From the IMG/VR virus record IMGVR_UViG_3300028800_000083: a stretch of 64,000 nucleotides of DNA. One strand, given 5' to 3'. The stretch is from a virus. The notes beneath the pieces were generated by a model that saw nothing but the letters and a program-made list of their open reading frames with translations, was not told where the DNA came from and searched no databases. Below, piece after piece: positions 28,322 through 47,413 of the stretch; the first letter of the stretch is position 1, and each line of letters begins with the position of its first letter. The position numbers were made by a program, and so were the translations under genes.

Positions 28322-28837
28322 TCAGCCTTCCTTCGTGTACTTCGTCCCGCGCGGCATGCGGTCCACGGGGGGTAGACCGTCGTGGCCCCGCGTCGAGTTG
28401 TAGTCCCACAGAGCGTCACGTCGAGCGTTGGGCAGGGGGCCGCGCACTCGCGTCGTGTAGCTGCCCACCTCCGCTGTCGGAGGGACCGTGACGACGTAGA
28501 GCTTCTTCATGGTCGCGTGCGCACGGGGGTTCTCCGCGCCACCAGCGTGCGCGGTGATCTTCGCGCGGGCGCGCGCACGGGAGGGAAACGTGCCGAGATC
28601 GACCTCGTTGCTCGGTCCCCAGGACTTGTAGTCGACGCGGTGCCCGGTCGGCACCGTGACGATCCAGTAGGCGCCGTCCTTCGTCCGCACGTCCGCCGTG
28701 CCGAGGGCGTGGCTGCCGACGACGGGGCCCCACACGCTCCGAGGTGTCGAACGTTTGGTCGCGTGGCTCGTGGGCTTTCCCGCGAGAGCTTCGTTGATCT
28801 CGCGTTGGAGCTGGGCGTGCGTCTTCTTGGCCGTCAT
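28322..28837 (-). CDS. hypothetical protein, member of the KKTxAQLDREIAEAL-motif family (motif at N-terminus)
   Basis: Begins MTAKKTHAQLQREINEALAG; 171 aa. Confidence 0.55.
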   Translation of the reverse strand: MTAKKTHAQLQREINEALAGKPTSHATKRSTPRSVWGPVVGSHALGTADVRTKDGAYWIVTVPTGHRVDYKSWGPSNEVDLGTFPSRARARAKITAHAGGAENPRAHATMKKLYVVTVPPTAEVGSYTTRVRGPLPNARRDALWDYNSTRGHDGLPPVDRMPRGTKYTKEG

Positions 28838-28889
28838 TGGTTATCCCGTCGAGTCTATCGAAGGCGGTAACAAAGCGCACATTTTTTGC

Positions 28890-29237
28890 TCACGAAGCGA
28901 CCCGCGCCTTCGCCGCGCGTTCGGCGTCGGCGTCACGGGGCGCGGGCGCGATCGAAGCGTCAGCCTCCGTGAGGTGCGCGTGCGCCGGGCAGAAGTCGCG
29001 TCCTCCCCGGTCCTCGCAGCGCCAGCCGTCCTTGTTCTCCGCGATGCACCGGATCAGGACGGCGTCGCGGTGTAGCGAGAAGGCCGTCTCGCAGCGACGG
29101 TCGAACAGCATCGTGCCGCCACAGAGCCGGCAGGCGACGCCGGTCACCGCAGAGGAGGTCGCGACCTCCGCCTGGCAGTCCGTGCAGTGCAGGAGCGCCG
29201 CGTCGCACGAGATCGTTGTCACCACCACGACGCTCAC
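28890..29237 (-). CDS. hypothetical Cys-rich protein
   Basis: 115 aa; contains CxxC..CRLCGG..C..H. Confidence 0.45.
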   Translation of the reverse strand: MSVVVVTTISCDAALLHCTDCQAEVATSSAVTGVACRLCGGTMLFDRRCETAFSLHRDAVLIRCIAENKDGWRCEDRGGRDFCPAHAHLTEADASIAPAPRDADAERAAKARVAS

Positions 29238-29274
29238 CCTACCGAGGCTCCGATCCTGATCGCAAGGTCCAAGA

Positions 29275-29919
29275 TCACGCGCGGACCTCGACGCGCATGT
29301 GCACCATCGTCACGCCGTCGAGCAGGGCTGCGGGCACGTCGAGCCGCACGCCGAGGGCTTTTGCCGCGAGCACGAACACCAGTGGGATCGGGCCGCCGGT
29401 CAGCGAGCCGAAGGCTTGGGCGCCCGCGAGCGCGGTCGCGTGCTCGATCTTCCGCAGGTCGACCAGCGCGATCGGCTTGGGCTCCGCGCCCGGGCCGAGC
29501 TCGCAGTTCTCTGGGGGTGAGACCACCATGTGGTAGCGGCAGACCGTGGGGCGGACCGCGTAGACCTCGCAGCGTCGGTCCGGTGTCAGGAACATGCACG
29601 GGAGCTGGCGCTGGAAGAAGGCCACGCGCTCGCGCTCGTCGAGGACGTTGACGCCGGCGAACGCGGTGAGCTGCTTGACCAGCTCGCGCTCGAGCGCGGG
29701 GCGCCGCTGCTCCCAATCGCAGCGACTCGTGAGGTACTCGACGACCGGGACCATCTCCGGGATGGTCGCGGTCGCGGGCAGCGTGCAGCAGTGGGCGCAG
29801 CCCTCCTTGCAGGTCACGCCCATCGTGGCCACGGCCTCTGCGACGAGCGGCGCGTGCTCGCGGTAGAGCTGGAGCACCACCTTGCTGGCACGCTTCGCGC
29901 GGCGACCCTCTTGGCTCAC
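29275..29919 (-). CDS. YkgJ-family CxxCxxCC zinc/iron-chelating domain protein
   Basis: GTG at 29919 with a GAGGG RBS (the upstream Arg-rich extension of the ORF is rejected). Contains CKEGCAHCC and, downstream, CEVYAVRPTVCRYHMV, which are typical of the family. Confidence 0.6.
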   Translation of the reverse strand: MSQEGRRAKRASKVVLQLYREHAPLVAEAVATMGVTCKEGCAHCCTLPATATIPEMVPVVEYLTSRCDWEQRRPALERELVKQLTAFAGVNVLDERERVAFFQRQLPCMFLTPDRRCEVYAVRPTVCRYHMVVSPPENCELGPGAEPKPIALVDLRKIEHATALAGAQAFGSLTGGPIPLVFVLAAKALGVRLDVPAALLDGVTMVHMRVEVRA

Positions 29920-30425
29920 GGGCGGCCCTCGGCGTCCCAGCGCTTCATCGCGGCGCGTTCGGTGGGACGATGGGCGGCGAAGGTCTCGGCGGAGATCGCG
30001 CGCCGCGTCGCCTCCTCGATCGCTTGCTCTCGAGGCAGTCCGGCGCCGCTGGCGCGCCGCCACTCGCGCGAGCCGTCGTCGTAGAAGCGCAGCTGGTAGA
30101 CGTAGAAACTGCGGCAGTCGTCGCTCTGCGGGCAGCCCGGGAGCCCGCAGCGAGCGGTGCAATGGGGGATGCGCAGCACGCGCACGCCGGATCGGAACTG
30201 CACGACCAGGCACCCTTCCATCCAGTAGTCCGGTCTCGTCACGAGCCACGAGCGTCTCGGTGGCCGTGCCGACCGCGTCGGGGTGAGTGGTAGTCGCGGA
30301 GCCGGCGGCAGGCAGCCGACGCAGAAGCAGTGCGCCCACACTCGGGAGTCCGCGCGCGGGCCGATGACGGGCACACCGCAGCGCTCGCACGCGCCGCGCG
30401 GCGTGCTTTGACGTGGAGAGGACAT
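29916..30425 (-). CDS. hypothetical Cys-rich protein
   Basis: MSSPRQSTPRGACERCG...; ~170 aa; start overlaps the upstream stop by 1 nt. Confidence 0.45.
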   Translation of the reverse strand: MSSPRQSTPRGACERCGVPVIGPRADSRVWAHCFCVGCLPPAPRLPLTPTRSARPPRRSWLVTRPDYWMEGCLVVQFRSGVRVLRIPHCTARCGLPGCPQSDDCRSFYVYQLRFYDDGSREWRRASGAGLPREQAIEEATRRAISAETFAAHRPTERAAMKRWDAEGRP

Positions 30426-30661
30426 CAGGACCCTTGGCAATGCTCGTGCTCGTAGTACGGGTTCGACACGTACGGCCTGTGGGACTTGCTGGGAGCGCGA
30501 GCGCTCGCCACGAGCTGGGCTCCGAGGATCCCCAGGGTTCCGAAGCCGATAAGGATGCCGAACATCTCGACGAGCACGTCGGGCTTCTTCGCGGAGTGCC
30601 CTTGCGGGTCCTCCACGACCTGACCGGCCTGAGTGGCGCCGTAGTACCCGCGTGCGTTCAT
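30425..30661 (-). CDS. small membrane protein
   Basis: 78 aa; TM segment VLVEMFGILIGFGTLGILGAQLVA. Confidence 0.45.
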   Translation of the reverse strand: MNARGYYGATQAGQVVEDPQGHSAKKPDVLVEMFGILIGFGTLGILGAQLVASARAPSKSHRPYVSNPYYEHEHCQGS

Positions 30662-30739
30662 TTTTTCATACTAGCGTTGGGTCGAGAGGATGTGTCGAAG
30701 TTTCATCGACGGAAACTGCACGACCAAGTCCCCTTCCAT

Positions 30740-31107
30740 TCAGTAGTTCGGTTTCGTGGTCACGTCGGCGCCTTCGCTCCGCGCGGCTTCTTCTGGCCGC
30801 GGGCCACCTCGTGGGCCGCGAGGCGGGCGATCGTTTCGCTCGTGTTGTCGCCGATCCGGCACACGTAACACGTTGGAGGCGGTGGTCGCGGCGACCCGTC
30901 CCCACCGTCGACGCCCCAACCCGCCGTCGCCGGTCCGCCGCAGCTCGTGCAGACGGAGTCGTGCGATCGGAGCAGCCACCCGTTGCCGTGGCCGACGACG
31001 GGGACGACGTCGCGACTGGAGTCATCGAAGCCGAAGCACCACGGGCAGCGGTTGGACGGACAGCGCGTGAAGTAGCCGTGGGGGCACTTCTCCGCTGAGA
31101 GGCTCAC
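30740..31107 (-). pseudogene. frameshifted or truncated paralog of the Cys-rich gene 29916..30425
   Basis: A ~50-bp DNA repeat (30712-30764 versus 30203-30255) encodes NYWMEG in the intact copy and NY-stop-MEG here. The N-terminal Cys-rich part (CPSNRCPWCFG) is in a different frame from the C-terminal part. Confidence 0.35.
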
Positions 31108-32222
31108 CTCCGGGACCTCTTCTTACGCGGTCGATCGTCGCCGAGCGCCACGAACTCGCGCAGGAGATCCTCCTGCTTGGGGGACAGCTTCCGCGGCACT
31201 TCGACGATGAAGCGGACCACGTGGTCACCACGCTCTCCTCCGCCGACGCTCGGGATGCCCTGGCCGCGACGATGCAACTCGTCGCCCGGCTGCGTGCCGG
31301 GACGCAACTCCAGGATCGCGGTCCCCGTGCAGTCGTCGTCGAGCGTGTCGACCTCGACCTCGCCGCCGAGCTCTGCTTGGGCGAAGCTGATCGTCACCTC
31401 GCTGGTGACGTCGCTGCCGTCGCGCGTGAAGCGCTCGTCTTCTTGGACGTGGAGGACGACGTGGAGGTCGCCGGAGGCGCCGCCGGGCACGCTCTCGCCC
31501 CTGCCGGAGACGCGGAGCGTTTGGCCGTCGTCGACGCCGGCTGGGACCGTCAAGGACAGCGTGGACTTCTCGGTCCGCGTGCCTCGCCCGCGGCAGTCCG
31601 GGCACGGGTCCTTGATCGTCTTCCCCGCGCCCTGGCAGTGCGGACACGTCGTCTGCACCATGAAGAAGCCTTGTGCGTGAGTGACCTGACCCTTGCCCTG
31701 GCACGCACGGCAAGGCTCGGGTTGCGCTGCGCCGCGCACGCCGGTCGCGCGACACGCCGCGCACCCCGCGGCGCGCGTGACCTCGACGTCCTTGCGCACG
31801 CCCCACACGGCCTCGCGGAAGGTGAGCCTCAGGTCGAGGCGCAGGTCGGCACCGCGCGTCGGTCGGCGCGAGTTGCGACCAAAGAAGTCGCCGAACAAGT
31901 CGCCGAACGCCGAGAAGATGTCGTCGACGTTGTTGAAGCCGCCGCTGAACCCCGCCCCTGGTCCGTCGCCGGGGGCAGCGCCGCCGCGGCGGATCCCGTC
32001 GAAGCCGTGGCGGTCGTACGCAGCACGCTTGTCGGTGTCGGACAGGACCTGGTAGGCGTTCGCGGCCTCCTTGAACTTCTCCTCGGCGGTCTTGTCTCCC
32101 GGGCACTTGTCGGGGTGGTACAGCTGCGCGAGGCGGCGGTAGGCTTTCTTGAGGTCGGCTGGCGTCGCCGCGCGCGGGACGCCGAGCACCTCGTAGAGGT
32201 CGCGAGGCGCAGACGTGCTCAC
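31104..32222 (-). CDS. dnaJ: molecular chaperone DnaJ
   Basis: J domain [32 protein letters not shown]; four CxxCxGxG zinc-finger repeats; C-terminal substrate-binding region. GTG start at 32222 (the longer ORF to 32294 has a spurious Arg-rich N-terminus). Confidence 0.9.
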
Positions 32223-32536: not shown

Positions 32537-32733
32537 TTGCTGGGGAGTCTACTCGGTGGAGGGTGGGAACCTGACACAGATCCGCGCCTCACCGCCATCG
32601 TTTCGATCCTGGGCCTTGCCATCACACCGAGTGCACGTTTGGAGGCGCCCTGCGCCCTGGCGCCTGGCGCCTCGGAGGTCAGCGGTCAGCGGGGTGCCGC
32701 GTGATCGCGTATAAGCGACCTTGAGCCGGCGCG

Positions 32734-34079: not shown

Positions 34080-34427
34080 TCACCGCTTCGGTTCGTAGCA
34101 GCGCCCTCCGGCTCCGAGCGACGACCCGAGTTGCCCGCGGCGCCGCATCGATTCGAGCACCGAGCGCGTCCAGGTGCGCTGCCGCTCCTTGGTGGCCCAG
34201 CGGAAGTCCTCTGGCATGTGCGCCTGGCGCAGGTAGTCGGCGACGAGACCGACCGTCACGCATGGTTCTTTGCCCCCGACGGTCGCGTGTCGTCTGTACG
34301 CGCCCTCGATGATCTCCGTCGCGCCGGCCTCGATTGCCGTGCGCACGGCGTCGGGGATCCGCTTTCGTGCAGCGTGCCTCGTGAGGGCTGCGGCAATCTC
34401 GGCGTCGAGTTGGGAAGTCTTGGTCAC
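34080..34427 (-). CDS. hypothetical protein, motif-family member (N-terminal VTKTSQLDAEIAAAL)
   Basis: GTG at 34427 in a GTGA overlap with the upstream gene; the Arg-rich upstream extension is rejected. Confidence 0.45.
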   Translation of the reverse strand: MTKTSQLDAEIAAALTRHAARKRIPDAVRTAIEAGATEIIEGAYRRHATVGGKEPCVTVGLVADYLRQAHMPEDFRWATKERQRTWTRSVLESMRRRGQLGSSLGAGGRCYEPKR

Positions 34428-34873
34428 CGCTGCTTGCTCTTCGGTCGGACCCACAGGACGTCCACCTCCTCGACACCGTGGTCGGCGAGAACTGACAGCC
34501 GGTGGTTCCCGTCGATCACTCCACCGTGCTGGTCGATGACGATCGGCCAGGGTTCTTGGTGCTGGTAGACGATCAGCCCTTCGACTTGATCGTACCGCCT
34601 GAGGTTCTGGCGGACCTCCTTGGCGTCGCTGTCGGGATCCACCTCGTAGTCGAACCTCGACCCGGGGTCCAGGTCGTGGATCGGTACGCCGCGAACGAGG
34701 TCCCACGTGTACTTAGACGGGGATTTGAACTCGGGGAACTTGACGGCCTTCTTGATCAGGGCGCCGTAGGACTTTGGGTCGACGCGCTCTCTGTGGAGGG
34801 AGACCAGCCACTCCGGGGCGCTCAGGGCTTCGTCGATCTCGGCGTCGAGTTGCGAGGGCTTCTTGGGTGTCAT
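34424..34873 (-). CDS. ParB-like nuclease domain protein with N-terminal KKPSQLDAEIDEAL motif
   Basis: Begins MTPKKPSQLDAEIDEALS. VIDGNHRLSVLADHG matches the ParB/Srx DGxHR signature. 150 aa. Confidence 0.55.
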   Translation of the reverse strand: MTPKKPSQLDAEIDEALSAPEWLVSLHRERVDPKSYGALIKKAVKFPEFKSPSKYTWDLVRGVPIHDLDPGSRFDYEVDPDSDAKEVRQNLRRYDQVEGLIVYQHQEPWPIVIDQHGGVIDGNHRLSVLADHGVEEVDVLWVRPKSKQR

Positions 34874-35205
34874 CGGTCTTCTGCTTCGGACGCGATCCAT
34901 TCCTGCATGTCCGCCTTCACAGCGCTCTCCGCGCAACTCTGCCAGGCATCACGCCACGCTCTGTAAGCGGCTCTCAGCTCGAGACCGCTCTTGAGGATCC
35001 CGTCAACGTCGGCTTGAGAGAGCCACTGATCGTACTGGTCCTCGTCGTTACCCCACGCTTCGCGCACGATCTTCTTGGCAGCTCCGCTGCCTTGCGGTTT
35101 GCCGAGGCGTTCCCAAGCGTCGTTGTGGTCGCTCGTGTTGAATACGTTGGCGCAGTCCTGGTAGCCGGTTCGGGCGAAGTCCCCGTAGTTTAGTCTGTCC
35201 CGCAT
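34870..35205 (-). CDS. hypothetical protein
   Basis: ATGA overlap; 111 aa; no motif. Confidence 0.45.
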   Translation of the reverse strand: MRDRLNYGDFARTGYQDCANVFNTSDHNDAWERLGKPQGSGAAKKIVREAWGNDEDQYDQWLSQADVDGILKSGLELRAAYRAWRDAWQSCAESAVKADMQEWIASEAEDR

Positions 35206-35507
35206 TTGGATCTCCTAAGAGCCTCGGCGATCTCGGCGTCGAGGCGGGCCCGCGTCCTCTTCACCGGGGGCACCGGGGTCCGTGGCACGGTTTCCAGCGT
35301 CGCGTACTTCGGGTTCATGCGCATCTCGACGGTCTTCGCGACGCGCCCGCGGTCGACGATGCGCAGTCGTCGGTGGGCACCGGGGGGCTCGACCTCGTCG
35401 CCCTCGGCGTTGACCTCGACGCCGCGGATGAAGAGCACAGAGTCGCTGGTGACGCGTAGGATGAAGCGCGTGCCGTCGTCGAGCGTGACCTTCAGGTAGC
35501 GGATCAC
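35190..35507 (-). CDS. hypothetical protein with the motif at its C-terminus (KRTRARLDAEIAEALRRS)
   Basis: 105 aa. Confidence 0.45.
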   Translation of the reverse strand: MIRYLKVTLDDGTRFILRVTSDSVLFIRGVEVNAEGDEVEPPGAHRRLRIVDRGRVAKTVEMRMNPKYATLETVPRTPVPPVKRTRARLDAEIAEALRRSKCGTD

Positions 35508-35920
35508 GTGAGCCCCTGGGCCGCGAGGAGCTGCTGGACCTCGGCGCGCAGCGCGCCCACCTCGCGGTGCAGCTGTGACCGGGGCGTGTGAGGAAACATC
35601 GGGGAGCCCAGGTTGGCGTCGAGGCCCGGGACCTCGACGTTGTCGACTTGGTCGTTCACGACCTTCGTGAGGCCGCCGAGCGCTCTCAGGCGATCGGCGG
35701 TCGGGGAGGGACCGACGGCCTCGACGGAGGCGCGGACGACCTCCAGCCGCCCTAGGCGGTACGCCTCGGAGGCGCGGACGCGGTCCGTCACGACCTCCGC
35801 CGCCGTGGACAGGGGGTCGCGGCGGTCGGTGTAGGACACCCTGCCTGCGCCGGACTCCTGCGCGGCGCGCGTCACGGCGATCTCGCGGTCGAGCTGGGCG
35901 GATTTCCGACGATCAGACAT
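35504..35920 (-). CDS. hypothetical protein, motif at N-terminus (MSDRRKSAQLDREIAV)
   Basis: ATG at 35920; 138 aa. Confidence 0.45.
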   Translation of the reverse strand: MSDRRKSAQLDREIAVTRAAQESGAGRVSYTDRRDPLSTAAEVVTDRVRASEAYRLGRLEVVRASVEAVGPSPTADRLRALGGLTKVVNDQVDNVEVPGLDANLGSPMFPHTPRSQLHREVGALRAEVQQLLAAQGLT

Positions 35921-36212
35921 CGGACCAGCCTTCCTTGCTCGCGAGGCCCTGCATGTAGCGACCGCCACGCCAGCGGTGCCACACCTCGACACGCGAGTGC
36001 TCCCCCTGACGCACGAGCTTCATTGCGGCGCGCTTCGCCGCAAGACGAGACCGAAATTCCGGTTCCAGCGGCTGCTCCTTGGTGTCGGTGAGGTAGAAGA
36101 CTCTTTCGTCGTCGCTGTCATCGTCAGACGTAGACGTGGACGCGGATCCCGCGAGCGCTGCGGCGATTTCGCGGCTGAGCTGTGTAGCGGACGTTTTCGA
36201 GCGCCTGTTCAT
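35913..36212 (-). CDS. hypothetical protein, motif at N-terminus (MNRRSKTSATQLSREIAAALAG)
   Basis: 99 aa; Asp/Ser-rich linker. Confidence 0.45.
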   Translation of the reverse strand: MNRRSKTSATQLSREIAAALAGSASTSTSDDDSDDERVFYLTDTKEQPLEPEFRSRLAAKRAAMKLVRQGEHSRVEVWHRWRGGRYMQGLASKEGWSDV

Positions 36213-36214
36213 TG

Positions 36215-36922
36215 TCAGCTTCTCCCAGGGACAATCTTGATCCGCTTTGGATCGAAGATCACCCAGTCGTCGTCCAGATGGATGCTGTCGTAACCGAGGC
36301 TCTCCAACTCATCGAGGCTATGCCGGTCGTACTCGTCCCAACCCGCGGTCTTGTCAACGTGCAGAAGTGCCTTGATCAGATGCTTCGTGCTCACGGCACC
36401 GCTTTCGCCGCGTAAGATCTTGTCCTTGTCCGTGCTAAACCAGAACACGCCCTGCGCTGAATAGCGCGGATCGAAGCGTCGGATCTGCACGTCGCTGCCG
36501 TGATACGCGGTGATGACGCGGGGATGTGATCTAACGAGGACTTTGGTCTCGCGCTTGAGCGTTGTTTCCGATGGCTGCCCCGTGAGTGCGGCGGCGACCT
36601 CGCGGTCAAGTTGGGAGGACGTCTTCTTCCTCAGCGAACTGTGCGATCTGGAAGATTCGGAGGCCCTACGGTACCACGCCGCGTCGACGACGTTGCCTTC
36701 GACGGCGATCGCGTGCAGCGGGCCGTGCTGACTGTTGGCCTCGGCGACGGCGTCGCGCTTCGTCGCGAAATCGTCGCCCGCCTCGTCAGCGTACGTCGTG
36801 ATCTTGCCGGACGGGTAGAACACGTCGTAGTCCCACCGGCCGTTCAAGCGTCGGTGCACGCGCACCCGCAGCGAGTCGTGCCTGTCGCGGTAGACGTAGT
36901 CGGCGTGCTTGCGCGCGGTCAT
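36215..36922 (-). CDS. two-domain hypothetical protein with the motif internal (RKKTSSQLDREVAAALTGQ at ~aa 96-115)
   Basis: 235 aa. The motif separates an N-terminal ~95-aa domain from a C-terminal ~120-aa domain. Confidence 0.5.
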   Translation of the reverse strand: MTARKHADYVYRDRHDSLRVRVHRRLNGRWDYDVFYPSGKITTYADEAGDDFATKRDAVAEANSQHGPLHAIAVEGNVVDAAWYRRASESSRSHSSLRKKTSSQLDREVAAALTGQPSETTLKRETKVLVRSHPRVITAYHGSDVQIRRFDPRYSAQGVFWFSTDKDKILRGESGAVSTKHLIKALLHVDKTAGWDEYDRHSLDELESLGYDSIHLDDDWVIFDPKRIKIVPGRS

Positions 36923-37254
36923 CTTCCGCCGGGAACGTCGAGTGCGACCTCACGCCCCATCGCACGGTAGTGAAGACGGCGTTCGTCGATGTTGTCTTGC
37001 ACGTCCGGCGTGGGCGTCTCCTCGGCGTCGTCGAACTCGCCGCCGTTGTCCGAGATCGTGTAGCGCTCCTCGTCGTCCTCGTCCTCGTCCTCGTCGTCCT
37101 CGTCGTCGTCCTCGTCGTCGTCCTCGTCGTCGTCCTCGTCGTCGTCTTCGTCGTTGTCCGCATGCACCGAAACCGAGATCGTCACTGGCTGCTTCGCGGC
37201 GAGCGCGGCAGCGATCTCACGATCGAGTTGGGCGGCGGTCTTCTTACGCTTCAC
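36919..37254 (-). CDS. highly acidic protein (DE-rich run) with N-terminal MKRKKTAAQLDREIAAALAA motif; DNA-mimic candidate
   Basis: 111 aa; contains DNDEDDDEDDDEDDDEDDDEDDEDEDEDDEE. Confidence 0.5.
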   Translation of the reverse strand: MKRKKTAAQLDREIAAALAAKQPVTISVSVHADNDEDDDEDDDEDDDEDDDEDDEDEDEDDEERYTISDNGGEFDDAEETPTPDVQDNIDERRLHYRAMGREVALDVPGGR

Positions 37255-38397: not shown

Positions 38398-38973
38398 TTA
38401 CCGCGGAGGCCGGGCCAGGTCTCTTTTTGGATCAGGCGGCTGGGCGACCTCCGCGAGGGAGAGCGCGACGCGCCGGAGCAGCCCCGCGGTCTCGACCCGC
38501 GCGCCGGACCACTTGCTCTCGCGGGGCCCGGCGATGAGCAGCCTTGTCGGGATGGGGTTGAGAGGTGCCCCGAGCAGAGGCAACGGCAGCGTCTTCGTCA
38601 TCATCATCAGGTCGCTCCAGATCCAGCGCGCGACCCGCGCCGGATCGCACGTCGGGTCGACGATCAGGCGGGGGAGGTGACGTCCGGCTGCGAGGTCGAT
38701 CGTCTTGGCGGTGCCGGGTGTCACCCGTGGGTCGTCGGCGTCGTGGACCACGATCAGCGCAGCGCTCGCCCTCTGTACGTTGGCCTCGGTGCGCGCGGCG
38801 TAGCTGGTCTTGTCGTGCAGCGTGAGGAACCGCGCGACGGCCTCCGGGATCTTGCCGCGCTCGTCGCGGCCGTCGCGCGGCATGTAGCCCGTGACGAGCC
38901 AGCCGTTGTCGAGGGCGGCCTCGTGCGCGCCGCGGTCGACACCCGTCTGTCCGCCATGCACGACTGTGATCAT
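38398..38973 (-). CDS. SLOG-family / putative molybdenum-carrier-like (YpsA-like) protein
   Basis: N-terminal MITVVHGGQTGVDRGAHEAALDNG matches the SGGQTGADRAALD signature; 191 aa. Confidence 0.55.
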   Translation of the reverse strand: MITVVHGGQTGVDRGAHEAALDNGWLVTGYMPRDGRDERGKIPEAVARFLTLHDKTSYAARTEANVQRASAALIVVHDADDPRVTPGTAKTIDLAAGRHLPRLIVDPTCDPARVARWIWSDLMMMTKTLPLPLLGAPLNPIPTRLLIAGPRESKWSGARVETAGLLRRVALSLAEVAQPPDPKRDLARPPR

Positions 38974-39446
38974 GGGGTCTTCGCCTCCGCCACTGCCTCG
39001 ACGCTCCTCGTCGTCGTCGTGTCCTTCGCCTGGTAGCCGATCGCGCAGAGGACCTCGGCCTCGGCAGCCCGGTGCGCTTGCTCCGCCACGGCAAGAGTGG
39101 TCTTCGCGTCCTCGATCGCGCGTGCTGTCGACTGGAGACGTTGGAGCGCCGTGGCGGGCAGCCTCCGCGCGCGCAGGTCCAGCTCGGCGAGTGCCGTCAG
39201 GATGTCACGGCACGCGAGGTGCCCGAGGCCGTCGCGATCTAGGGCGCCGACTTGGCGCGTGGCGTTCGCGAGGGCTTCGGCAACCTGGCCCCTCGTGACG
39301 AGGACGAGCGCGTGGTCCGGGTCGATCAGTAGCCTCAGCGCCTCGGCGGGCGGGAATCGTGAGCGCTCGCCGACAGCGCGCTGGCGCGGACTCCTGGAGC
39401 ACGTCGTCCGGTTGTGCCCGTCCTCGCGGCAGAGGGCGCACTTCAT
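38970..39446 (-). CDS. hypothetical protein with CCHC zinc knuckle
   Basis: ATG at 39446 (MKCALCREDGHNRTTC, C-x2-C-x4-H-x4-C); the upstream Arg-rich extension is rejected. Confidence 0.45.
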   Translation of the reverse strand: MKCALCREDGHNRTTCSRSPRQRAVGERSRFPPAEALRLLIDPDHALVLVTRGQVAEALANATRQVGALDRDGLGHLACRDILTALAELDLRARRLPATALQRLQSTARAIEDAKTTLAVAEQAHRAAEAEVLCAIGYQAKDTTTTRSVEAVAEAKTP

Positions 39447-39709
39447 GGCAGGGCCCTGCCCAGGTCGCGCTCGAGTCGCGCGCGCTTCGCCGCGCGGTCG
39501 TCCTCGTCGCCCGTGTCGCTGTTGACGTGGATTGTCGGTGCGACGTGCAGCTCGACGCGGCAGAGCGCCCCGCCGACGTTCGCCAGGCACAACCAGCGCC
39601 CGTCGAACGTCTTCAGCGCCTTGCCGACGTAGCGGATGCCAGTTGACTCGTCGACGACGCCGTCGACGTCGATCTCGGTCGCGTCGGCGTTCGTAGTGAC
39701 TTCCACCAT
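39443..39709 (-). CDS. hypothetical small protein, motif-like C-terminus (AAKRARLERDLGRAL)
   Basis: ATG at 39709; ~88 aa. Confidence 0.35.
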   Translation of the reverse strand: MVEVTTNADATEIDVDGVVDESTGIRYVGKALKTFDGRWLCLANVGGALCRVELHVAPTIHVNSDTGDEDDRAAKRARLERDLGRALP

Positions 39710-39728
39710 CAGCGCTTCTCCTTGATGA

Positions 39729-40016
39729 TCACGAGGCACGCGTCCCTGATCGGGAGGGCAGTGTCCAGCCGTTCACGAGGTACGTGCGCGGCGTGTCATC
39801 CCGCAGCGGTGGCAGCGTCTCAGCGGGCTCGCCGTCGTAGTGCCGCTGTATGGCGCCGCAGGCAGGGCACCACAGGATCGCGAGCCCGGTGAGCGGCTCG
39901 GGTGGGACGGTGTCGAGGGAGAACGTGCCTGCGATCCAGCTCGGGCGGTCGTGGGCACAGAGGTCCTTGATCCGGTTGTCACCCATCGCTTTTGCTCCAT
40001 GGGCGGAGGCGTTCAT
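39729..40016 (-). CDS. hypothetical small protein
   Basis: ATG at 40016 (MNASAHGAKAMG..); contains CPACG. Confidence 0.35.
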   Translation of the reverse strand: MNASAHGAKAMGDNRIKDLCAHDRPSWIAGTFSLDTVPPEPLTGLAILWCPACGAIQRHYDGEPAETLPPLRDDTPRTYLVNGWTLPSRSGTRAS

Positions 40017-42064: not shown

Positions 42065-42279
42065 GCGGCGCCACGGACCTCCGTGGCGACGTCGGCCGCG
42101 CGCTCGGCGTCGGCCGTCCCCGCGATGTAGGCCGTCAGCTTCTTGGGAGGAAACCAGTCGCGGAACATCATGGTGACCTGGTGGGGCTCGTAACCGGCAG
42201 CGTACATGCGTACGCGGAGCGTGTCCCTGTAGGCGCGCGCCGTGTCGGGGTGGTTGAAGCGCAAGAACGCGGCCTTCAT
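42040..42279 (-). CDS. hypothetical small protein
   Basis: 79 aa. Confidence 0.35.
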   Translation of the reverse strand: MKAAFLRFNHPDTARAYRDTLRVRMYAAGYEPHQVTMMFRDWFPPKKLTAYIAGTADAERAADVATEVRGAACKLRDEP

Positions 42280-42614
42280 CGGGGAGACTCCTCGCCGAGC
42301 GCCTCGGCGATCTCGGCGTCGAGTTGCGCGGGGGTCTTCGTCTCAGTGGCCTGGGGCGCCTTCCTCGCGCGCCACCAAGCGTTCAGCGCTGACTGGAGGG
42401 AGGGGAACGTCGATGGGAACGCCCGGTCGGTGTGCGGCGCGAGCCACTTCTCGATCCGGTAGCGCCTGCCCTTCGGGCCCAGCCAGGCGTGGCCGACGTG
42501 CTGGAACAGGTCGTTGTCGGGCGTCCACCAGAACCCGGGCAAGACGCTGTGGAGGACGATCGGGTGCGTGGCGCCGCGGGGACCGACGTGGAATGTCCGG
42601 CGCTGCTCGGCCAT
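42276..42614 (-). CDS. hypothetical protein with the motif at its C-terminus (TKTPAQLDAEIAEALGEESPR)
   Basis: 112 aa. Confidence 0.45.
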   Translation of the reverse strand: MAEQRRTFHVGPRGATHPIVLHSVLPGFWWTPDNDLFQHVGHAWLGPKGRRYRIEKWLAPHTDRAFPSTFPSLQSALNAWWRARKAPQATETKTPAQLDAEIAEALGEESPR

Positions 42615-43142: not shown

Positions 43143-43150
43143 GGCACTTC

Positions 43151-43354: not shown

Positions 43355-43362
43355 GGGTGATC

Positions 43363-43981: not shown

Positions 43982-44034
43982 TGGGTCTCAACCGGATCTG
44001 GACAGGTCTCTCGTCGGAACGTCGGAACGGCCTC

Positions 44035-44679
44035 TCACATTGACGTAGCTGGGGAGTGCGCGTCGGCGGCTACCCGCGGCTGATCCACATGTGCCGCGTG
44101 AGGCTCCTGCCGTGGGCGATCGCGCAGCGCGAGACTCCTGCCGCGGGCGATCATGGCGTGGACCTCGGCCAATCGATCGTTGCTGAGGGAGAGGCGCTGC
44201 TCTTCTGCGATGCGCTCCAGGGCATCACACAACTCGAGGATCACCGCATCGCGCGGCTCGACGCGCACGCGGCGCACGCGGTCTTTCGGCTCCACGTACT
44301 GAAGGATCGCCACCTCGTGGTTGGTCACGTAACAGCGGCGATCGTCGATCTTCTTGAGCACGCCCTCGTTCGTTAGTTCAGCGACACGTGCGCGCCACAG
44401 GTTCAGGTTCTCGCTGAGACCTGCGGCTCGTAGCACCTCGGTAGCTGAGCCGGGGCTGAACTTCCGAAAAGCCTGGATGACGATGTCGCGCTTGCGCTGG
44501 AGCCGCCCACTGTCTTCCTCGATGTGGAAGGCGTCGATGCTGGTGGGCGGATGGGCCCTGTCGAACGCACTGACGTAGGTGACGTTGTCGAGTGACGGTG
44601 TCGCGTTGGAGTCGTTGTTGTCGGGCACGTCTCCTCGTAGCACGTGGGTCTGATGAGCTGATGAGTAAGACGTATGCAC
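44035..44679 (-). CDS. hypothetical protein, possible winged-helix DNA-binding domain
   Basis: GTG at 44679 with a GGGAAG RBS; the ORF-track start at 44772 would overlap the upstream gene by 90 nt. ~214 aa. Confidence 0.4.
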   Translation of the reverse strand: MHTSYSSAHQTHVLRGDVPDNNDSNATPSLDNVTYVSAFDRAHPPTSIDAFHIEEDSGRLQRKRDIVIQAFRKFSPGSATEVLRAAGLSENLNLWRARVAELTNEGVLKKIDDRRCYVTNHEVAILQYVEPKDRVRRVRVEPRDAVILELCDALERIAEEQRLSLSNDRLAEVHAMIARGRSLALRDRPRQEPHAAHVDQPRVAADAHSPATSM

Positions 44680-44681
44680 GC

Positions 44682-45479
44682 TCAACGACTTCCCGGGGTG
44701 AGGATGCGCGTCGCGCCGATCGCGAGCTTCTCCTTCTGGCTGAGGTTGTCGACCAGGCCGCACTTGTTGCACTCCATGGCGAGGAGCGCGCGGGTAACGT
44801 CCTCGGCGCTGGAGTGCACGTTGCCGATCGGGAAGCAGTTCGAGGTCTCGCCGGCGACGATCGTGCCGTCGCTCGAGATGCTGGGCGCGCAGTTGCCGGA
44901 CATCCCAACCGCGGCCCGGGCGCGTATCACGAACAGCGCCTCGCGGACGTCGCCGAATGACCGGGTCAACGACCGTATGTTGAACGACGTGGGGGCCCGG
45001 TGGATCGGCGGCGAGGGTGGCAGCCGCGATCGCTTGAGCCGACCGAGCGTGACGAGCCGGGTCAGAGCCGGCTCGAACACGACGCGCGGGTCGTCCATAG
45101 GTACGGCCTTGGGCGCTCGCGGGTAGAACCTGGGGTCGTTGGTCACCTGGACCATCAGGTCAGGCCAGTCGGGGCGGAGGATCCTCGCGCGCAGCTCGGG
45201 GTCGTCGAGCCACAGGCCGTTGGTGATCAGGATGACCTGGTGAGCGTGGGCGAGCGCGGTCTCCAGGAACCACGCGACGTCGGGGTGCTCCGTCGCCTCG
45301 CCGCCGCTCAGGAGGAGCACCCGCGGGACCCCGCACGACCACGCGAGGCCCTCAAGCCGCGCGGTGAGAGCGAGCGCGGTGGTGAACGTCTCGCGGGTCA
45401 TGTGCTGACCGGTGACGGTCGAGTCTTCCATGCAGTGCGAGCAGCCCATGGAGCAGTAGTTGGTGATCTTGATCAGCAC
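44682..45479 (-). CDS. radical SAM domain protein
   Basis: N-terminal ITNYCSMGCSHC (CxxxCxxC) and LLLSGGEATEHPD (the GGE motif); 265 aa. Confidence 0.8.
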   Translation of the reverse strand: MLIKITNYCSMGCSHCMEDSTVTGQHMTRETFTTALALTARLEGLAWSCGVPRVLLLSGGEATEHPDVAWFLETALAHAHQVILITNGLWLDDPELRARILRPDWPDLMVQVTNDPRFYPRAPKAVPMDDPRVVFEPALTRLVTLGRLKRSRLPPSPPIHRAPTSFNIRSLTRSFGDVREALFVIRARAAVGMSGNCAPSISSDGTIVAGETSNCFPIGNVHSSAEDVTRALLAMECNKCGLVDNLSQKEKLAIGATRILTPGSR

Positions 45480-45498
45480 GCGACCTCCTCGCTAGATG

Positions 45499-46347
45499 CT
45501 AGATGCGACCAGCGGTTGGCTTCTTCCAAGCGTCGCGGTCGACGTACGCCGCGAACACGATCTTGTCCGCGTCCTTGGGGGCGCCGTTGCGGTTGATAGC
45601 GACGATGAAGGGCCCGTCGATCTTGACCGTGCGGACCGTACGGACGCCCCTGGTCACCGCGATCTCCGCAGCGGCACTCGCGCGCCCGCCGACCTCGTTC
45701 AGCTCCAGGCGGAGCTGCTCGACCGCCTGCGTGACCACGTTCGTGCCCGCGCGGAGGCCACGCATGTACTTGGCGTCGTCGCGGACGAGCAGGTCGACCA
45801 TCGGGAAGTCGAGTCGGACTTCTTCGCGCGCCGAACGACAGACCATAGCCAGCGCGCGTTCAGCTAGCTCGGCGGCGTGCACGGGTGCCGTGTCCGCCTG
45901 CTGGAAGCAGAAGCTGAAGCTCGCGTGCTGAGTGACGACCTCCACCACGGGATGCTCGCGGGGGGCTGAAGTGGACGTGTACGCGCCCTTCTTTAAGAGG
46001 ACGCGGTCGACCTCGCGTTCCCGGTACGCTTGTCCGATCGCGCGCCACTTGGCGATGATGTTCAGCGTGCTCGCGAGGAAGATGTCGTTGGGGGTGCCCT
46101 GCGTGACCTGGGCTTCCCAACCTTCGCTCTTCAACCACGCGACGTGCTGCTCGGCGGAGGCGGTGGCGTTGCGGTGGACCTCGGGCATCGTGGCGGCCAG
46201 CTCGGCGCGTCGCCGGAAGCTGCTGAGCCACGCTGCTTGGTCAGCTCGGTCAGGGCTCCCCAGCCACGTCGGGCTGCCCAGGAGATCGTCGGCCGCGGCG
46301 AGGGCTGTGGGCATCGTGAAAGGAGAAACAGCGAGGCACTTCGTCAT
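45499..46347 (-). CDS. hypothetical protein
   Basis: 282 aa. Confidence 0.5.
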   Translation of the reverse strand: MTKCLAVSPFTMPTALAAADDLLGSPTWLGSPDRADQAAWLSSFRRRAELAATMPEVHRNATASAEQHVAWLKSEGWEAQVTQGTPNDIFLASTLNIIAKWRAIGQAYREREVDRVLLKKGAYTSTSAPREHPVVEVVTQHASFSFCFQQADTAPVHAAELAERALAMVCRSAREEVRLDFPMVDLLVRDDAKYMRGLRAGTNVVTQAVEQLRLELNEVGGRASAAAEIAVTRGVRTVRTVKIDGPFIVAINRNGAPKDADKIVFAAYVDRDAWKKPTAGRI

Positions 46348-46569
46348 TCAACAGGACCTTTCGACAGGGGACAGGTTAGCGCCCATGCTTCGCAGCCGCG
46401 CGGTCTCCAGGAGCATCGGCGATGGCGGGACACAGCTTCCGGCACGCGACTTCGCTTCGCCTTCCGCCGTGTAGTACGTCAGCTGGCCTGTTCGGCCGCC
46501 GCCATAGCCGCTGCGAACAGTTCCGCAGTTGGCGCAAGCGTCGTTTTCGTTCCAGCGGTGGCGCGTCAT
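46348..46569 (-). CDS. small zinc-ribbon protein
   Basis: ATG at 46569 (MTRHRWNENDACANCG); ATGA overlap with the upstream gene. Confidence 0.4.
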   Translation of the reverse strand: MTRHRWNENDACANCGTVRSGYGGGRTGQLTYYTAEGEAKSRAGSCVPPSPMLLETARLRSMGANLSPVERSC

Positions 46570-47219
46570 GAGTTGATCAGTGCCTCGGCCTCGTCGGGTG
46601 TGCAGCGCGCCTTCACCTTGTCGACCCACGCGCGGGTCTTGGCCTTGGCCATGACGAGGTCGTGCGTCTTGCCGTGGCCCGCTTTGCCGACGACGCCCTC
46701 GAAGGTCACACCCTCGACGTCGCCGTTCCAGACGCGGTCGACGAACCCGCGCGTCCAGTTGAGGCGCCCAAGGAACCGCGCCATCGGCAGCCCCTCGAAT
46801 AGTTTCAGGTACGCGGCGGGACCGAGCAGTCCCTGCTTGTACGGCGCGACGTCGATCAGGGCGACGCGCATCTGGTCGTCAGGATCGAGGGGCTGGTTCT
46901 GGGCGTCGTGGTGGCAGCCCGCGAAGCTGCTGGGTCCCCAGTGCTCGGCGAACGCGACGACGTGCTCCCAGCGCTGGTCGACGGCGACCTTCGCCACAGG
47001 CTCCGAGAGCGTGTCCATGAAGATCTTGATCGCGCGCCCGAACTGCCAGTCGCTCGCGTCGAAGAGGCGCGTCCGCGTGCCGGACTTCGTCCACTGCTTG
47101 CGCTTGCGGCTCCACTCGAAGCGAAGGTTCGATCCGTCGAGCTTGTCGAAGACGTAAGCGTCTGGGATCTCCTGGAAGGTCATCCCTGTGGCGCGTGAGA
47201 TCGAGGGGTAGGTCTTCAT
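46566..47219 (-). CDS. ATP-dependent RNA/DNA ligase-like nucleotidyltransferase
   Basis: Motif I KxDG (YVFDKLDGSNLRF); 217 aa. Confidence 0.5.
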   Translation of the reverse strand: MKTYPSISRATGMTFQEIPDAYVFDKLDGSNLRFEWSRKRKQWTKSGTRTRLFDASDWQFGRAIKIFMDTLSEPVAKVAVDQRWEHVVAFAEHWGPSSFAGCHHDAQNQPLDPDDQMRVALIDVAPYKQGLLGPAAYLKLFEGLPMARFLGRLNWTRGFVDRVWNGDVEGVTFEGVVGKAGHGKTHDLVMAKAKTRAWVDKVKARCTPDEAEALINS

Positions 47220-47413
47220 CGCGCTCCTTTGGAGCGTTCGGTCAGCGCTCTTGATTGTTGGTGTGACAGCAGGCGCCGGCCCAGCGCGGCGGTGAGTTTG
47301 AGGATCTCCTCATTGATGAATTCGATCTGAGACCCGTCCTGGTCCGCCTCAACAGCGCGTATCGCCGCAGCGTCGAGCGCGAGCCGTACTTCCCTGAGGG
47401 TTTGTTTCTTCAC
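47216..47413 (-). CDS. small protein with degenerate family motif (MKKQTLREVRLALDAA)
   Basis: 65 aa; ATGA overlap. Confidence 0.35.
   Translation of the reverse strand: MKKQTLREVRLALDAAAIRAVEADQDGSQIEFINEEILKLTAALGRRLLSHQQSRALTERSKGAR

What the first reader, a model, noticed from the sequence alone, without database searches (positions are those of the whole stretch)
28322..47413. Family of at least 11 small proteins sharing a 15-aa peptide motif K-K-T-x-A-Q-L-D-R-E-I-A-x-A-L
The motif sits at the N-terminus in MTAKKTHAQLQREINEAL (28837), VTKTSQLDAEIAAAL (34427), MTPKKPSQLDAEIDEAL (34873), MSDRRKSAQLDREIAV (35920), MNRRSKTSATQLSREIAAAL (36212) and MKRKKTAAQLDREIAAAL (37254). A degenerate form, MKKQTLREVRLAL, is at 47413. 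It sits at the C-terminus in KRTRARLDAEIAEALRRS (35190..35507) and TKTPAQLDAEIAEALGEE (42276..42614), and in a weaker form, AAKRARLERDLGRAL, at 39443. The flanking protein bodies are unrelated. They include a ParB-like nuclease domain and an extremely acidic protein. The motif is encoded with synonymous codon differences (CAACTCGATCGTGAG / CAGCTCGACCGCGAG / CAGCTCCAACGCGAG), so selection acts on the peptide, not on a DNA site. A portable amphipathic helix tag on many cargo-like small proteins in a phage-like region suggests one of three things. It could be a targeting or packaging signal, analogous to the T4 capsid-targeting sequence on internal proteins. It could be a shared docking peptide for a co-encoded partner such as the DnaJ at 31104..32222 or the HExxH peptidase at 54596..55363. 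Or it could be a protease-processing site. I do not recognise it as a described domain.
Basis: seen in the sequence. Interest (0 to 1): 0.75.

Follow-up and report, generated by a model that had tools for sequence, protein, structure and literature searches.

The report
Shared docking peptide on huge-phage proteins
A clade of uncultivated, very large soil phages puts the same 15-residue helical peptide (KK-T-x-AQLDREIAxAL) on dozens of otherwise unrelated small accessory proteins. It looks like a portable address tag, perhaps for loading these proteins into the virus particle, and no database or paper searched describes it.

Summary
The motif is real, but the window holds nine copies, not eleven or more. 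One is new and lies between the two domains of the 235-aa protein at 36215-36922. The "degenerate" copies at 39443 and 47413 score as background.

All nine lie in frame on the minus strand within 28.3-42.6 kb. No other frame of 72 kb scores above 6 bits.

The window belongs to a huge phage-like element. It lies on contigs up to 461 kb, has tail and virion genes in related loci, and carries two Cas12m CRISPR loci.

The peptide recurs about 220 times on more than 100 metagenomic contigs and in 166 protein clusters worldwide. It sits on at least 91 unrelated protein bodies, at N-termini (about 55%), between domains, or at C-termini. It is absent from 185,579 bacterial species genomes. Codon usage shows that selection acts on the peptide.

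A second motif, HAT[KR][KR], flanks the helix and marks domain junctions. The same bodies occur alone or fused through these motifs. Some bodies are ADP-ribosyltransferase, PARP-like or ParB-nuclease-like domains, as in "polyvalent" injected proteins.

Best reading: a portable docking or targeting helix, most likely a T4-CTS-like capsid-loading tag with processing sites. This mechanism is inferred, not shown.

The parts
28322..28837 (-). g171. N-terminal motif MTAKKTHAQLQREINEAL (core nt 28784-28828), followed by two HAT sites (SHATKR at nt 28751-28765, AHATMKK at nt 28505-28519) that separate two small bodies.
   Evidence: The body recurs fused behind another domain via HATRK plus the motif in P0107.
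34080..34454 (-). g124. N-terminal motif (V)TKTSQLDAEIAAAL (core nt 34383-34427). The gene caller starts the gene at 34454; an alternative GTG start is at 34427.
   Evidence: 17.5 bits with the independent profile
34424..34873 (-). g149. N-terminal motif MTPKKPSQLDAEIDEAL (core nt 34823-34867) on a ParB-nuclease-like body (DGNHR).
   Evidence: ParB_N and ParB-like PHROG hits occur among motif-protein representatives. A homologous body is fused behind the g235 N-domain in P0023.
35190..35507 (-). g105. C-terminal motif KRTRARLDAEIAEAL, then 7 residues and the stop codon (core nt 35217-35261).
   Evidence: The C-terminal position is conserved in homologues (P0006; L116 8686-9015). In L116 an unrelated gene separates it from the g111b homologue.
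35504..35920 (-). g138. N-terminal motif MSDRRKSAQLDREIAV (core nt 35867-35911). The tail deviates (AVTR instead of AxAL).
   Evidence: 19.2 bits
35913..36212 (-). g99. N-terminal motif MNRRSKTSATQLSREIAAAL (core nt 36153-36197).
   Evidence: 16.4 bits
36215..36922 (-). g235. Internal motif SHSSLRKKTSSQLDREVAAAL (core nt 36584-36628) between an N-terminal beta-rich domain and a C-terminal ART-PolyVal/PARP-like domain.
36919..37254 (-). g111ac. N-terminal motif (M)KRKKTAAQLDREIAAAL (core nt 37201-37245) on an extremely acidic body.
   Evidence: 36.6 bits. A homologous acidic body is fused behind the g235 N-domain in P0016.
42276..42614 (-). g112. C-terminal motif TKTPAQLDAEIAEAL, then 5 residues and the stop codon (core nt 42297-42341).
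   Evidence: 35.2 bits. Homologues keep the C-terminal tag (P0011; L063).
39443..39739 (-).
   Evidence: 0.6 bits with the independent profile; absent from the hit list.
47216..47413 (-).
   Evidence: -4.1 bits

Best explanation
The motif is a portable docking (address) peptide about 15 residues long: a basic cap (K/R)-K-(T/S), then a 12-residue amphipathic helix x-A-Q-L-D-(R/A)-E-I-A-x-A-L. It is carried by an interchangeable repertoire of small accessory and effector proteins in a clade of uncultivated high-GC huge phages.

The unit 'tag + short linker + body' can be a gene of its own, with the tag at the N-terminus or, less often, the C-terminus. Units can also be strung together into multi-domain proteins. 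In those proteins a second short motif, HAT[KR][KR], marks the junctions.

The tag binds one conserved receptor in trans. My committed guess for that receptor is the prohead interior (scaffold or core). On this view the tagged proteins are loaded into the capsid and injected with the DNA. The HAT[KR][KR] sites would be where a maturation protease separates tag and bodies. This is the same logic as the T4 capsid-targeting sequence on internal proteins and Alt.

Shown:
- the motif, its specificity, its modular distribution and its helical, linker-flanked character;
- the co-occurring HAT motif;
- the phage context.

Inferred:
- binding in trans;
- the identity of the receptor;
- packaging;
- cleavage.
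For: 1. Specificity. There are 9 copies in a 14-kb island and none elsewhere in 72 kb. About 220 copies score above 15 bits in 632 kb of related metagenomic loci, against a background below 8 bits. A filter-free search of 1.84 billion representatives found 168 clusters at E<=1e-3, two of them spurious. Bacterial species genomes and isolated-phage records have none.

2. Peptide-level selection. There are 191 distinct DNA versions, all synonymous codons are used, and usage is close to background.

3. Portability. At least 91 unrelated body clusters carry it. In the contig set, 109 copies are N-terminal, 47 internal and 21 C-terminal. In the unbiased protein set the numbers are 85, 62 and 9. N-terminal starts are real: 82 ATG and 27 GTG, with a Shine-Dalgarno-like sequence upstream in 63% against 24% of controls.

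4. Same body, different arrangements (P0107).
   - The g235 ART-like domain occurs alone with an N-terminal tag (P0015, P0017, P0018, P0025, P0029).
   - It occurs behind other domains via HA(T/K)KK plus the tag (P0013, P0014).
   - It occurs without a tag in low-GC polyvalent-like proteins (P0028, P0038, P0042).
   - The g235 N-domain is fused through the tag to the bodies of g111ac (P0016), g149 (P0023) and others.
   - The g171 body occurs behind another domain (P0107).

5. Structure. AlphaFold models the tag as an isolated helix (residues 102-114, pLDDT about 83) between low-confidence linkers that join two confident domains.

6. Conserved surface. The variable positions (3, 7, 10) occupy a 20-80 degree arc of the helical wheel. 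The rest of the helix, including polar Q0, D2 and E4, is nearly invariant. This fits a helix buried in a groove or bundle.

7. HAT[KR][KR]. It occurs 56 times against 0.2 expected in motif proteins, but only 2 against 0.3 expected in 593 neighbouring ORFs. Of 81 matches to a looser form of the pattern, 31 directly precede the helix and 50 stand alone, often 5-10 residues after the helix or between bodies. HAT precedes internal copies; at N-terminal copies a start codon takes its place. This is what a cut site that frees a KK(T/S)xAQLD... N-terminus would look like.

8. Cargo types. They match proteins known or predicted to be packaged and injected. ART-PolyVal, PARP, ParB_N, metallophosphoesterase and DUF5661 appear among the bodies. 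The g235 C-domain resembles PARP catalytic domains and a cyanophage pre-ejectosome protein. The polyvalent-protein logic is described in PMC5512222.

9. Phage context. Tail fibre, tail and virion-structural PHROG families occur within a few kb of motif genes. Contigs reach 200-460 kb.

10. Precedent. [quoted passage not shown] The CTS is a 10-20-aa N-terminal propeptide that the prohead protease removes (PMC7411985).
Against: - No head, scaffold, portal or prohead-protease gene of these phages could be retrieved. Neither a receptor nor HAT sites in head proteins could therefore be checked.
- About 10% of copies are C-terminal and 25-40% internal, whereas the T4 CTS is strictly N-terminal.
- The window island sits among genes that look like early or accessory functions (DnaJ, sigma factor nearby, Mom, SLOG, phosphoesterases), not next to structural genes.
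- There is no meaningful sequence similarity to the T4 CTS (recalled sequence only) and no T4-type L/I-x-E cut site that is invariant.
- Cleavage at HAT[KR][KR] is pure inference.
- Most bodies have no recognisable function.
- The conservation profile is partly inflated, because about half the copies were found with a DNA pattern that required K-[ST]-x-A-Q-L-D-x-E-I-A. The protein-level search shows the same pattern without that bias.
Confidence: 0.4

Rival explanations
1. The helix docks the tagged proteins onto a hub that is not the capsid. Candidates are the phage-encoded DnaJ (handing clients to host Hsp70), or a host machine such as RNA polymerase, the ribosome or the replisome that the phage takes over.
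For: A full-length class A DnaJ lies inside the island's gene array. Homologues 63-79% identical occur on many 200-500-kb contigs, including motif-bearing ones (332,853, 431,448 and 169,319 bp), and within 7 kb of motif genes in three other loci. Short docking motifs at either terminus or between domains are typical of hub binders. The island lies among early or accessory-type genes.
Against: From general knowledge of DnaJ and DnaK clients, they bind degenerate hydrophobic stretches, not a nearly invariant polar and hydrophobic 15-mer. DnaJ co-occurrence may only reflect shared ancestry of the clade. No host hub can be named. This reading does not explain the HAT[KR][KR] bracketing.
Confidence: 0.2
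2. The helices associate with one another in a short coiled coil or alpha-helical bundle. Separately encoded effectors would then assemble into a non-covalent 'polyvalent' complex.
For: REIAxAL is one heptad of designed coiled-coil barrels, and these are the only PDB matches to the motif profile. The basic cap and the acidic D2/E4/E7 residues are charge-complementary for antiparallel pairing. Fused and unfused versions of the same bodies coexist.
Against: A 12-residue helix is too short for a stable coiled coil on its own (general knowledge). The invariant polar Q0, D2 and E4 suggest a specific heterologous partner. The PDB matches are driven by repeated heptads (E 0.004-0.02) and say nothing about homology. 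Only 7 of 150 proteins carry two copies.
Confidence: 0.15
3. The motif has no binding function. It is a conserved junction or linker cassette that persists because it allows in-frame shuffling of modules by recombination, like the conserved pre-toxin motifs of polymorphic toxins.
For: The motif always sits at module boundaries. The same bodies appear in many combinations. P0023 keeps a scar of two abutting motifs, HATKKTPAAQLDPGTTVMAKSAAQLDREIA. Exact DNA runs of up to 23 nt are shared between window copies.
Against: The median shared exact run is only 8 nt and DNA identity is 66%, which is poor substrate for homologous recombination. Synonymous sites are free while the peptide is nearly invariant across 191 DNA versions. 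A pure recombination handle would conserve DNA, not protein. N-terminal and C-terminal tags are conserved within orthologous families.
Confidence: 0.1
4. The helix itself is only a protease recognition site for polyprotein processing, for example by the SprT-like HExxH peptidase.
For: Internal copies lie between domains. A weak SprT-like hit exists in the window. Polyvalent proteins are predicted to be autoprocessed by metallopeptidase domains (PMC5512222).
Against: More than half of all copies are at native N-termini, and about 10% are at C-termini followed by 4-11 residues. A cut site there would have no purpose, yet the motif is as conserved as in internal copies.
Confidence: 0.05
5. It is a nucleic-acid-level element (a regulatory site or DNA repeat), or a DNA-binding arm such as the start of a ribbon-helix-helix domain.
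For: The N-terminal KK preface and an LxxxIxxxL helix superficially resemble ribbon-helix-helix N-termini.
Against: All copies are in frame on the coding strand with free synonymous sites. There is no ribbon-helix-helix or other DNA-binding Pfam hit. The helix is followed by Pro/Gly/Ser-rich linkers rather than a second helix. The invariant acidic residues are unfavourable for DNA contact.
Confidence: 0.02

Closest known systems
Capsid targeting sequence (CTS) of phage T4 internal proteins IPI-III and Alt
   Same: A short conserved peptide is shared by otherwise unrelated, fast-evolving anti-defence proteins whose genes cluster together. T4 cargo includes an ADP-ribosyltransferase. A processing site follows the tag (PMC3012670, PMC7411985). 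Here the tag is mostly N-terminal and is often followed 5-10 residues later by HAT[KR][KR].
   Different: There is no sequence homology. The tag here also occurs at C-termini and between domains. No invariant L/I-x-E cut site is present. Packaging, cleavage and the scaffold receptor are untested. The hosts are huge high-GC soil phages, not T4-like phages.
Polyvalent proteins of phages and conjugative elements (Iyer et al. 2017, PMC5512222)
   Same: Combinatorial strings of effector domains (ART-PolyVal, ParB-like nuclease, peptidase and others) are thought to be delivered with the invading DNA. Solo and fused versions of the same domains coexist.
   Different: Here most modules are separate small genes or 2-4-domain proteins, not proteins of up to 15 domains. 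They are unified by a defined peptide tag and a junction motif, which a term search of that paper did not turn up.
Encapsulin cargo-loading peptides and bacterial microcompartment encapsulation peptides
   Same: A short peptide or amphipathic helix at the N-terminus, C-terminus or between domains is joined by a flexible linker. It directs diverse cargo into a protein shell (from general knowledge).
   Different: No encapsulin or microcompartment shell protein was seen in the window or neighbouring loci. The sequence is unrelated, and far more conserved than microcompartment encapsulation peptides.
MuF-domain polymorphic toxins and the phage P1 Dar system
   Same: Phage head-incorporation modules are fused to variable effector domains or antirestriction proteins (from general knowledge; P1 DdrB processing is cited in PMC5512222).
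   Different: Those systems use a folded domain or protein-specific N-terminal regions, not a 15-residue consensus peptide shared by about a hundred families.

Membership tests
T4-type capsid targeting sequence | Short conserved peptide shared by unrelated, clustered accessory or anti-defence proteins | tested here: met
   9 copies in a 14-kb island; at least 91 body clusters
T4-type capsid targeting sequence | Strictly N-terminal propeptide of 10-20 residues | tested here: not met
   About 55% of copies are N-terminal, but 25-40% are internal and 6-11% C-terminal
T4-type capsid targeting sequence | Removed by the prohead protease at a defined site next to the tag | not testable with these tools
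   HAT[KR][KR] sites bracket the helix, but cleavage is inferred. Head and protease genes of these phages could not be fetched.
T4-type capsid targeting sequence | Tagged proteins are present in virions and injected | not testable with these tools
   Needs virion proteomics. The only indirect hint is the similarity of the g235 C-domain to a cyanophage pre-ejectosome protein.
T4-type capsid targeting sequence | Sequence homology to the T4 CTS | not tested
   I recall the T4 CTS as MKTYQEFIAE. That is only a vague resemblance (KT..Q..E-I-A-E) and I made no alignment test. tblastn of the consensus against 50,697 phage records found nothing.
Polyvalent proteins (PMC5512222) | Effector domain repertoire typical of the class (ART-PolyVal, ParB-like nuclease and others) | tested here: met
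   ART-PolyVal (2 members, best E 1.8e-5), PARP and ParB_N among 91 representatives. Homologues of the g235 C-domain carry PF18760.
Polyvalent proteins (PMC5512222) | 2 to 15 domains in one polypeptide | tested here: inconclusive
   Most tagged proteins are single-body (median 151 aa, maximum 354 aa among the listed cluster representatives). Some have 2-4 bodies (g235; L008 8442-9446; P0107).
Encapsulin or microcompartment cargo peptides | Co-encoded shell protein (encapsulin, or BMC-H/BMC-P) | tested here: not met
   No such Pfam or PHROG family among the listed hits (the best 25 families per scan) of 69 window ORFs or 150 neighbouring ORFs. Only partial genomes were seen.
Ribbon-helix-helix DNA-binding domain | Beta-strand, helix, turn, helix of about 45 residues; a Pfam ribbon-helix-helix family hit | tested here: not met
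   No hit. The helix is followed by a Pro/Gly/Ser linker, and AlphaFold shows a lone helix.
RiPP leader peptide | Short precursor with leader and small core, next to a modifying enzyme that recognises the leader | tested here: not met
   Bodies are folded domains of 50-300 aa. The tag can be C-terminal or internal. The radical SAM gene at 44682-45479 lies outside the island.

The most novel reading that the evidence does not exclude
A clade of 200-500-kb soil phages uses a sequence-defined 'load and cut' code. One universal 15-residue helix tag addresses about a hundred interchangeable anti-defence and host-takeover modules to the capsid (or to another single receptor). HAT[KR][KR] sites release the modules. 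This would be a split, plug-and-play form of polyvalent proteins, and a natural protein-packaging tag that could be transplanted.
Probability: 0.3. Interest if true: 0.85.

Novelty: new variant of a known kind. Interest (0 to 1): 0.68.

Why it matters
If the tag is an addressing signal, its presence alone marks the whole injected or co-assembled effector repertoire of an uncultivated huge-phage clade. That is over 160 protein clusters, most of unknown function, and a ready-made candidate list for anti-defence genes.

It would also show how polyvalent proteins can be built and broken apart through defined junction peptides. And it would provide a compact, sequence-defined tag and cut site for loading foreign proteins into large capsids.

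If the receptor turns out to be something else (DnaJ or a host hub), the motif would still be a rare bacterial-virus case of a highly conserved short linear motif shared across about a hundred families.

Tried and rejected
- Megablast of 20 kb against the phage and plasmid collections found nothing.
- tblastn of the consensus against 50,697 phage records found nothing.
- The degenerate DNA pattern gave one chance-like hit in IMG/VR and 31 single, preface-less hits in GTDB genomes. I rejected all of these as members.
- The word-indexed protein search with the motif profile returned only 11 short proteins and missed the window's own genes, so it is not a census. The filter-free search is better. 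Two of its hits are spurious eukaryotic repeat proteins (P0054, P0177).
- A full-text search for QLDREIA, QLDAEIA and HATKK found nothing relevant.
- Pfam, NCBIfam and PHROGs have no family for the motif.
- PF27659, precomputed on P0003, turned out to accompany DnaJ zinc-finger regions, so it is not the helix.
- A PDB profile search gave only designed coiled coils.
- I considered and dropped these readings: beta-clamp-binding motif (position 4 is R/A, not L), ribbon-helix-helix, RiPP leader, membrane-targeting helix, histone-tail mimicry, and programmed frameshifting between g105 and the downstream ORF. There is no slippery site, and in L116 another gene separates the two homologues.
- One contig look-up failed on a wrong start codon. 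Because look-ups accept only window proteins, I could not walk to the structural genes. The extra 8 kb fetched contains only unannotated small ORFs.
- I did not use the second structure-prediction job.

Full report
**What the window is**

The window is 67% G+C and has no close relative among 50,697 phage or 72,556 plasmid records. The same DNA occurs on metagenomic contigs from several ENA, JGI and Logan samples. One contig is 151,752 bp, and the contig carrying the exact g235 protein reaches 461,400 bp.

Of 69 window ORFs, 37 PHROG families are hit, including a Mom-like modification protein, a sigma factor, a helicase and phosphoesterases. In related loci, tail-fibre, tail and virion-structural families lie within a few kb of motif genes.

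The ORF-poor stretches at 4.2-5.8 kb and 10.8-15.9 kb are CRISPR arrays next to two Cas12m-like genes. Together this indicates a huge phage. I saw no capsid or terminase gene directly.

**Checking the observation**

A loose six-frame pattern found nine in-frame hits on the minus strand between 28.8 and 42.3 kb, plus one spurious plus-strand hit.

- A profile of the nine copies scores them at 28-35 bits; the next best segment in any frame scores 5 bits.
- Leave-one-out scores are 22-36 bits.
- A profile built only from 180 copies found outside the window recovers exactly the same nine (16-37 bits; next best 6.2 bits).
- One copy was missed: it lies inside g235 (36215-36922), between its two domains.
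- The 8 kb beyond the window end holds no further copy.

Seven adjacent, overlapping genes (34080-37254) carry a tag, interrupted only by the untagged ORF at 34870-35205.

The DNA of the nine copies is 66% identical. Of 305 codon pairs that encode the same residue, 119 are synonymous variants.

**Distribution beyond the window**

- The word-indexed protein search returned 11 short metagenomic proteins that begin M-x-KKTAAQLDAEIAEAL or end with the motif.
- Two unrelated ENA contigs carry three and four copies.
- A degenerate DNA pattern found only chance-like single hits, without the basic preface, in 596 Gb of bacterial and archaeal species genomes. It found one such hit in IMG/VR.
Several lie on contigs of 202, 231 and 333 kb.
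- The profile finds about 220 copies above 15 bits in these 632 kb, against a background below 8 bits.
- A filter-free profile search of 1.84 billion cluster representatives gives 168 clusters at E<=1e-3, two of them spurious eukaryotic repeat proteins.

The motif is therefore specific to a set of uncultivated phage-like elements. It is not a compositional feature of high-GC proteomes.

**Anatomy of the motif**

The consensus is (K/R)-K-(T/S)-(P/A/S)-A-Q-L-D-(R/A)-E-I-A-(E/x)-(A/x)-L. K-4, A-1, Q0, L1, D2, E4, I5, A6 and L9 are at 84-98%. This is partly inflated by the DNA seed, but the protein-level set looks the same.

Synonymous codon use at these positions follows the genes' background, with all codons used across 191 DNA versions. 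Selection therefore acts on the peptide.

On a helical wheel the variable positions 3, 7 and 10 fall in a 20-80 degree arc, and the rest of the circumference is conserved. This suggests a helix buried in a groove or bundle.

AlphaFold models g235 as two confident domains joined by low-confidence linkers, with the motif as a lone helix (residues 102-114, pLDDT about 83).

**Position and modularity**

| Set | N-terminal | Internal | C-terminal | Ambiguous / contig-cut |
|---|---|---|---|---|
| 195 distinct contexts in contigs | 109 | 47 | 21 | 14 / 4 |
| Copies in 150 cluster representatives | 85 | 62 | 9 | 1 unplaced |

- In N-terminal copies a start codon lies 5-10 codons before Q. C-terminal copies are followed by 4-11 residues and a stop codon.
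- The N-terminal starts are 82 ATG and 27 GTG. A Shine-Dalgarno-like sequence lies upstream in 63%, against 24% at control positions.
- With the motif masked, 165 tagged proteins fall into 91 BLAST clusters.
- Body domains with a family hit include ART-PolyVal, PARP, ParB_N, metallophosphoesterase, DUF5661 and DUF6496. Most bodies have no hit.

Homologues of g235 show the modular logic directly:

- Its ART-like C-domain occurs alone with an N-terminal tag (P0015, P0017, P0018, P0025, P0029).
- It occurs behind other domains through HA(T/K)KK plus the tag (P0013, P0014).
- It occurs untagged in low-GC multi-domain proteins (P0028, P0038, P0042).
- Its N-domain is fused through the tag to the acidic body of g111ac (P0016), the ParB-like body of g149 (P0023, with a scar of two abutting tags) and other bodies (P0019, P0022, P0045).

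The g171 body recurs behind another domain in P0107. C-terminal tags are conserved within families (P0006, P0011, L063, L116). In L116 an unrelated gene separates the g105 homologue from the homologue of the window ORF at 34870-35205 (g111b). These tags are therefore not split leaders.

**A second motif**

HAT[KR][KR] occurs 56 times in 241 tagged proteins, against 0.2 expected from shuffles. It occurs only twice in 593 neighbouring untagged ORFs, against 0.3 expected.

Of 81 matches to a looser form of the pattern in the tagged proteins, 31 directly precede the helix, as in RHHATKKSPAQLDREIAEAL. The other 50 stand alone, often 5-10 residues after the helix or between small bodies.

- The L008 gene at 8442-9446 has three HAT[KR][KR] sites and a fourth, degenerate one (RHHAS).
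- g171 has the arrangement tag, SHATKR, body, AHATMKK, body.

HAT precedes internal tags, while at N-terminal tags a start codon sits where HAT would be. This is the pattern expected of a junction or processing site. Cleavage itself is not shown.

**Interpretation**

The tag behaves like a short linear docking motif. It is position-independent, flanked by linkers, helical, conserved on most of its surface, and attached to many unrelated bodies.

The closest precedent is the T4 capsid-targeting sequence. T-even internal proteins are diverse defence proteins that share only a conserved CTS. The CTS loads them into the scaffolding core and is then cut off by the prohead protease (PMC3012670, PMC7411985).

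Three further points fit this reading:

- The cargo types recall polyvalent proteins, which are predicted to be packaged and injected (PMC5512222).
- The g235 C-domain weakly matches PARP catalytic domains and a cyanophage pre-ejectosome protein.
- HAT sites bracket the helix.

I therefore commit to a T4-CTS-like 'tag plus cut site' loading system as the most likely mechanism, with confidence about 0.4.

The weak points are these. Internal and C-terminal copies do not fit the T4 model. The island's neighbours look like early or accessory genes. I could not inspect any head or protease gene of these phages.

**Rivals**

- **Docking to a non-capsid hub.** The phage DnaJ is conserved in the clade and lies within 7 kb of tagged genes in three other loci. 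This may be shared ancestry only, and chaperone clients are not normally this sequence-specific.
- **Self-association into a bundle.** REIAxAL equals one heptad of designed coiled-coil barrels, and these are the only PDB matches. The helix is very short, however.
- **A pure recombination handle.** Exact shared DNA runs are short (median 8 nt, maximum 23) and synonymous sites are free.
- **A protease site only.** Most copies sit at native termini, where a cut site has no purpose.
- **A nucleic-acid-level element or DNA-binding arm.** The codon analysis and the lack of any ribbon-helix-helix hit exclude this.

**Novelty**

Pfam, NCBIfam and PHROGs have no family for the motif, and the PDB has no homologue. 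Its sequence is absent from the searchable literature.

As a sequence family and as a two-motif junction code it is undescribed. As a concept it is a variant of known cargo-targeting peptides.

Noticed in passing
window 4242-5822 and 5971-7980 (-): A CRISPR-like array: 36-nt repeat GTCTCGGACGTCAACCGTCCGAGCAGGTGCGATCAC, period about 70-71 nt, roughly 15 units. It lies next to a 669-aa ORF whose best solved relative is Cas12m (phmmer E 1.2e-64). This is a phage-borne type V-M-like locus.
   Followed up: partly
window 10801-15911 and 16212-18167 (-): Several arrays of a different 36-nt repeat (GTCGAGACCACCGCGAGGTCTCGCATCGATCGTGCC, period about 72 nt) spread over 5 kb, next to a second, divergent Cas12m-like ORF of 651 aa (E 1.3e-25). 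The 151.7-kb ENA contig ends inside this repeat region.
   Followed up: partly
window 31104-32222 (-): A full-length class A DnaJ (J domain, zinc finger, C-terminal domains) encoded by the element. Homologues 63-79% identical lie on many 200-500-kb metagenomic contigs. The few named ones are binned as Kofleriaceae (Myxococcota) or Gaiellaceae. This may hint at the host lineage or may reflect misbinned phage contigs.
   Followed up: partly
window 36919-37254 (-): The tagged protein g111ac has a run of about 40 Asp/Glu residues (DEDDDEDDDEDDD...), which could be a DNA mimic. Its body is conserved in other contigs (PPVTI...DIDERR) and is fused to the g235 N-domain in P0016.
   Followed up: partly
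window 38398-38973, 44682-45479, 46566-47219, 56844-58133 (all -): Accessory genes around the island: a circularly permuted YpsA SLOG protein, a radical SAM protein, an RNA-ligase-like protein (weak PHROG hit) and a Mom-like DNA modification protein preceded by a DUF6884 gene. These look like counter-defence or nucleotide-modification functions.
   Followed up: no
L008 8442-9446 (-); L041 (whole 5.9-kb contig): L008 encodes a 334-aa protein made of four small bodies separated by HAT-type sites (RHATKK, RHATKK, SHATKR and a degenerate RHHAS), the last followed by the helix tag. L041 packs ten tagged genes into 5.9 kb. Several small bodies share a beta-rich core ending in a 'F/Y-x-T/S-K/R-x-x-A' helix, a loose resemblance to YegP/DUF1508 that I did not test.
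   Followed up: no
window 24006-25718 (+): A 570-aa sigma-70 family protein (PHROG 351, E 3.5e-53) with an unannotated N-terminal extension of about 300 residues.
   Followed up: no
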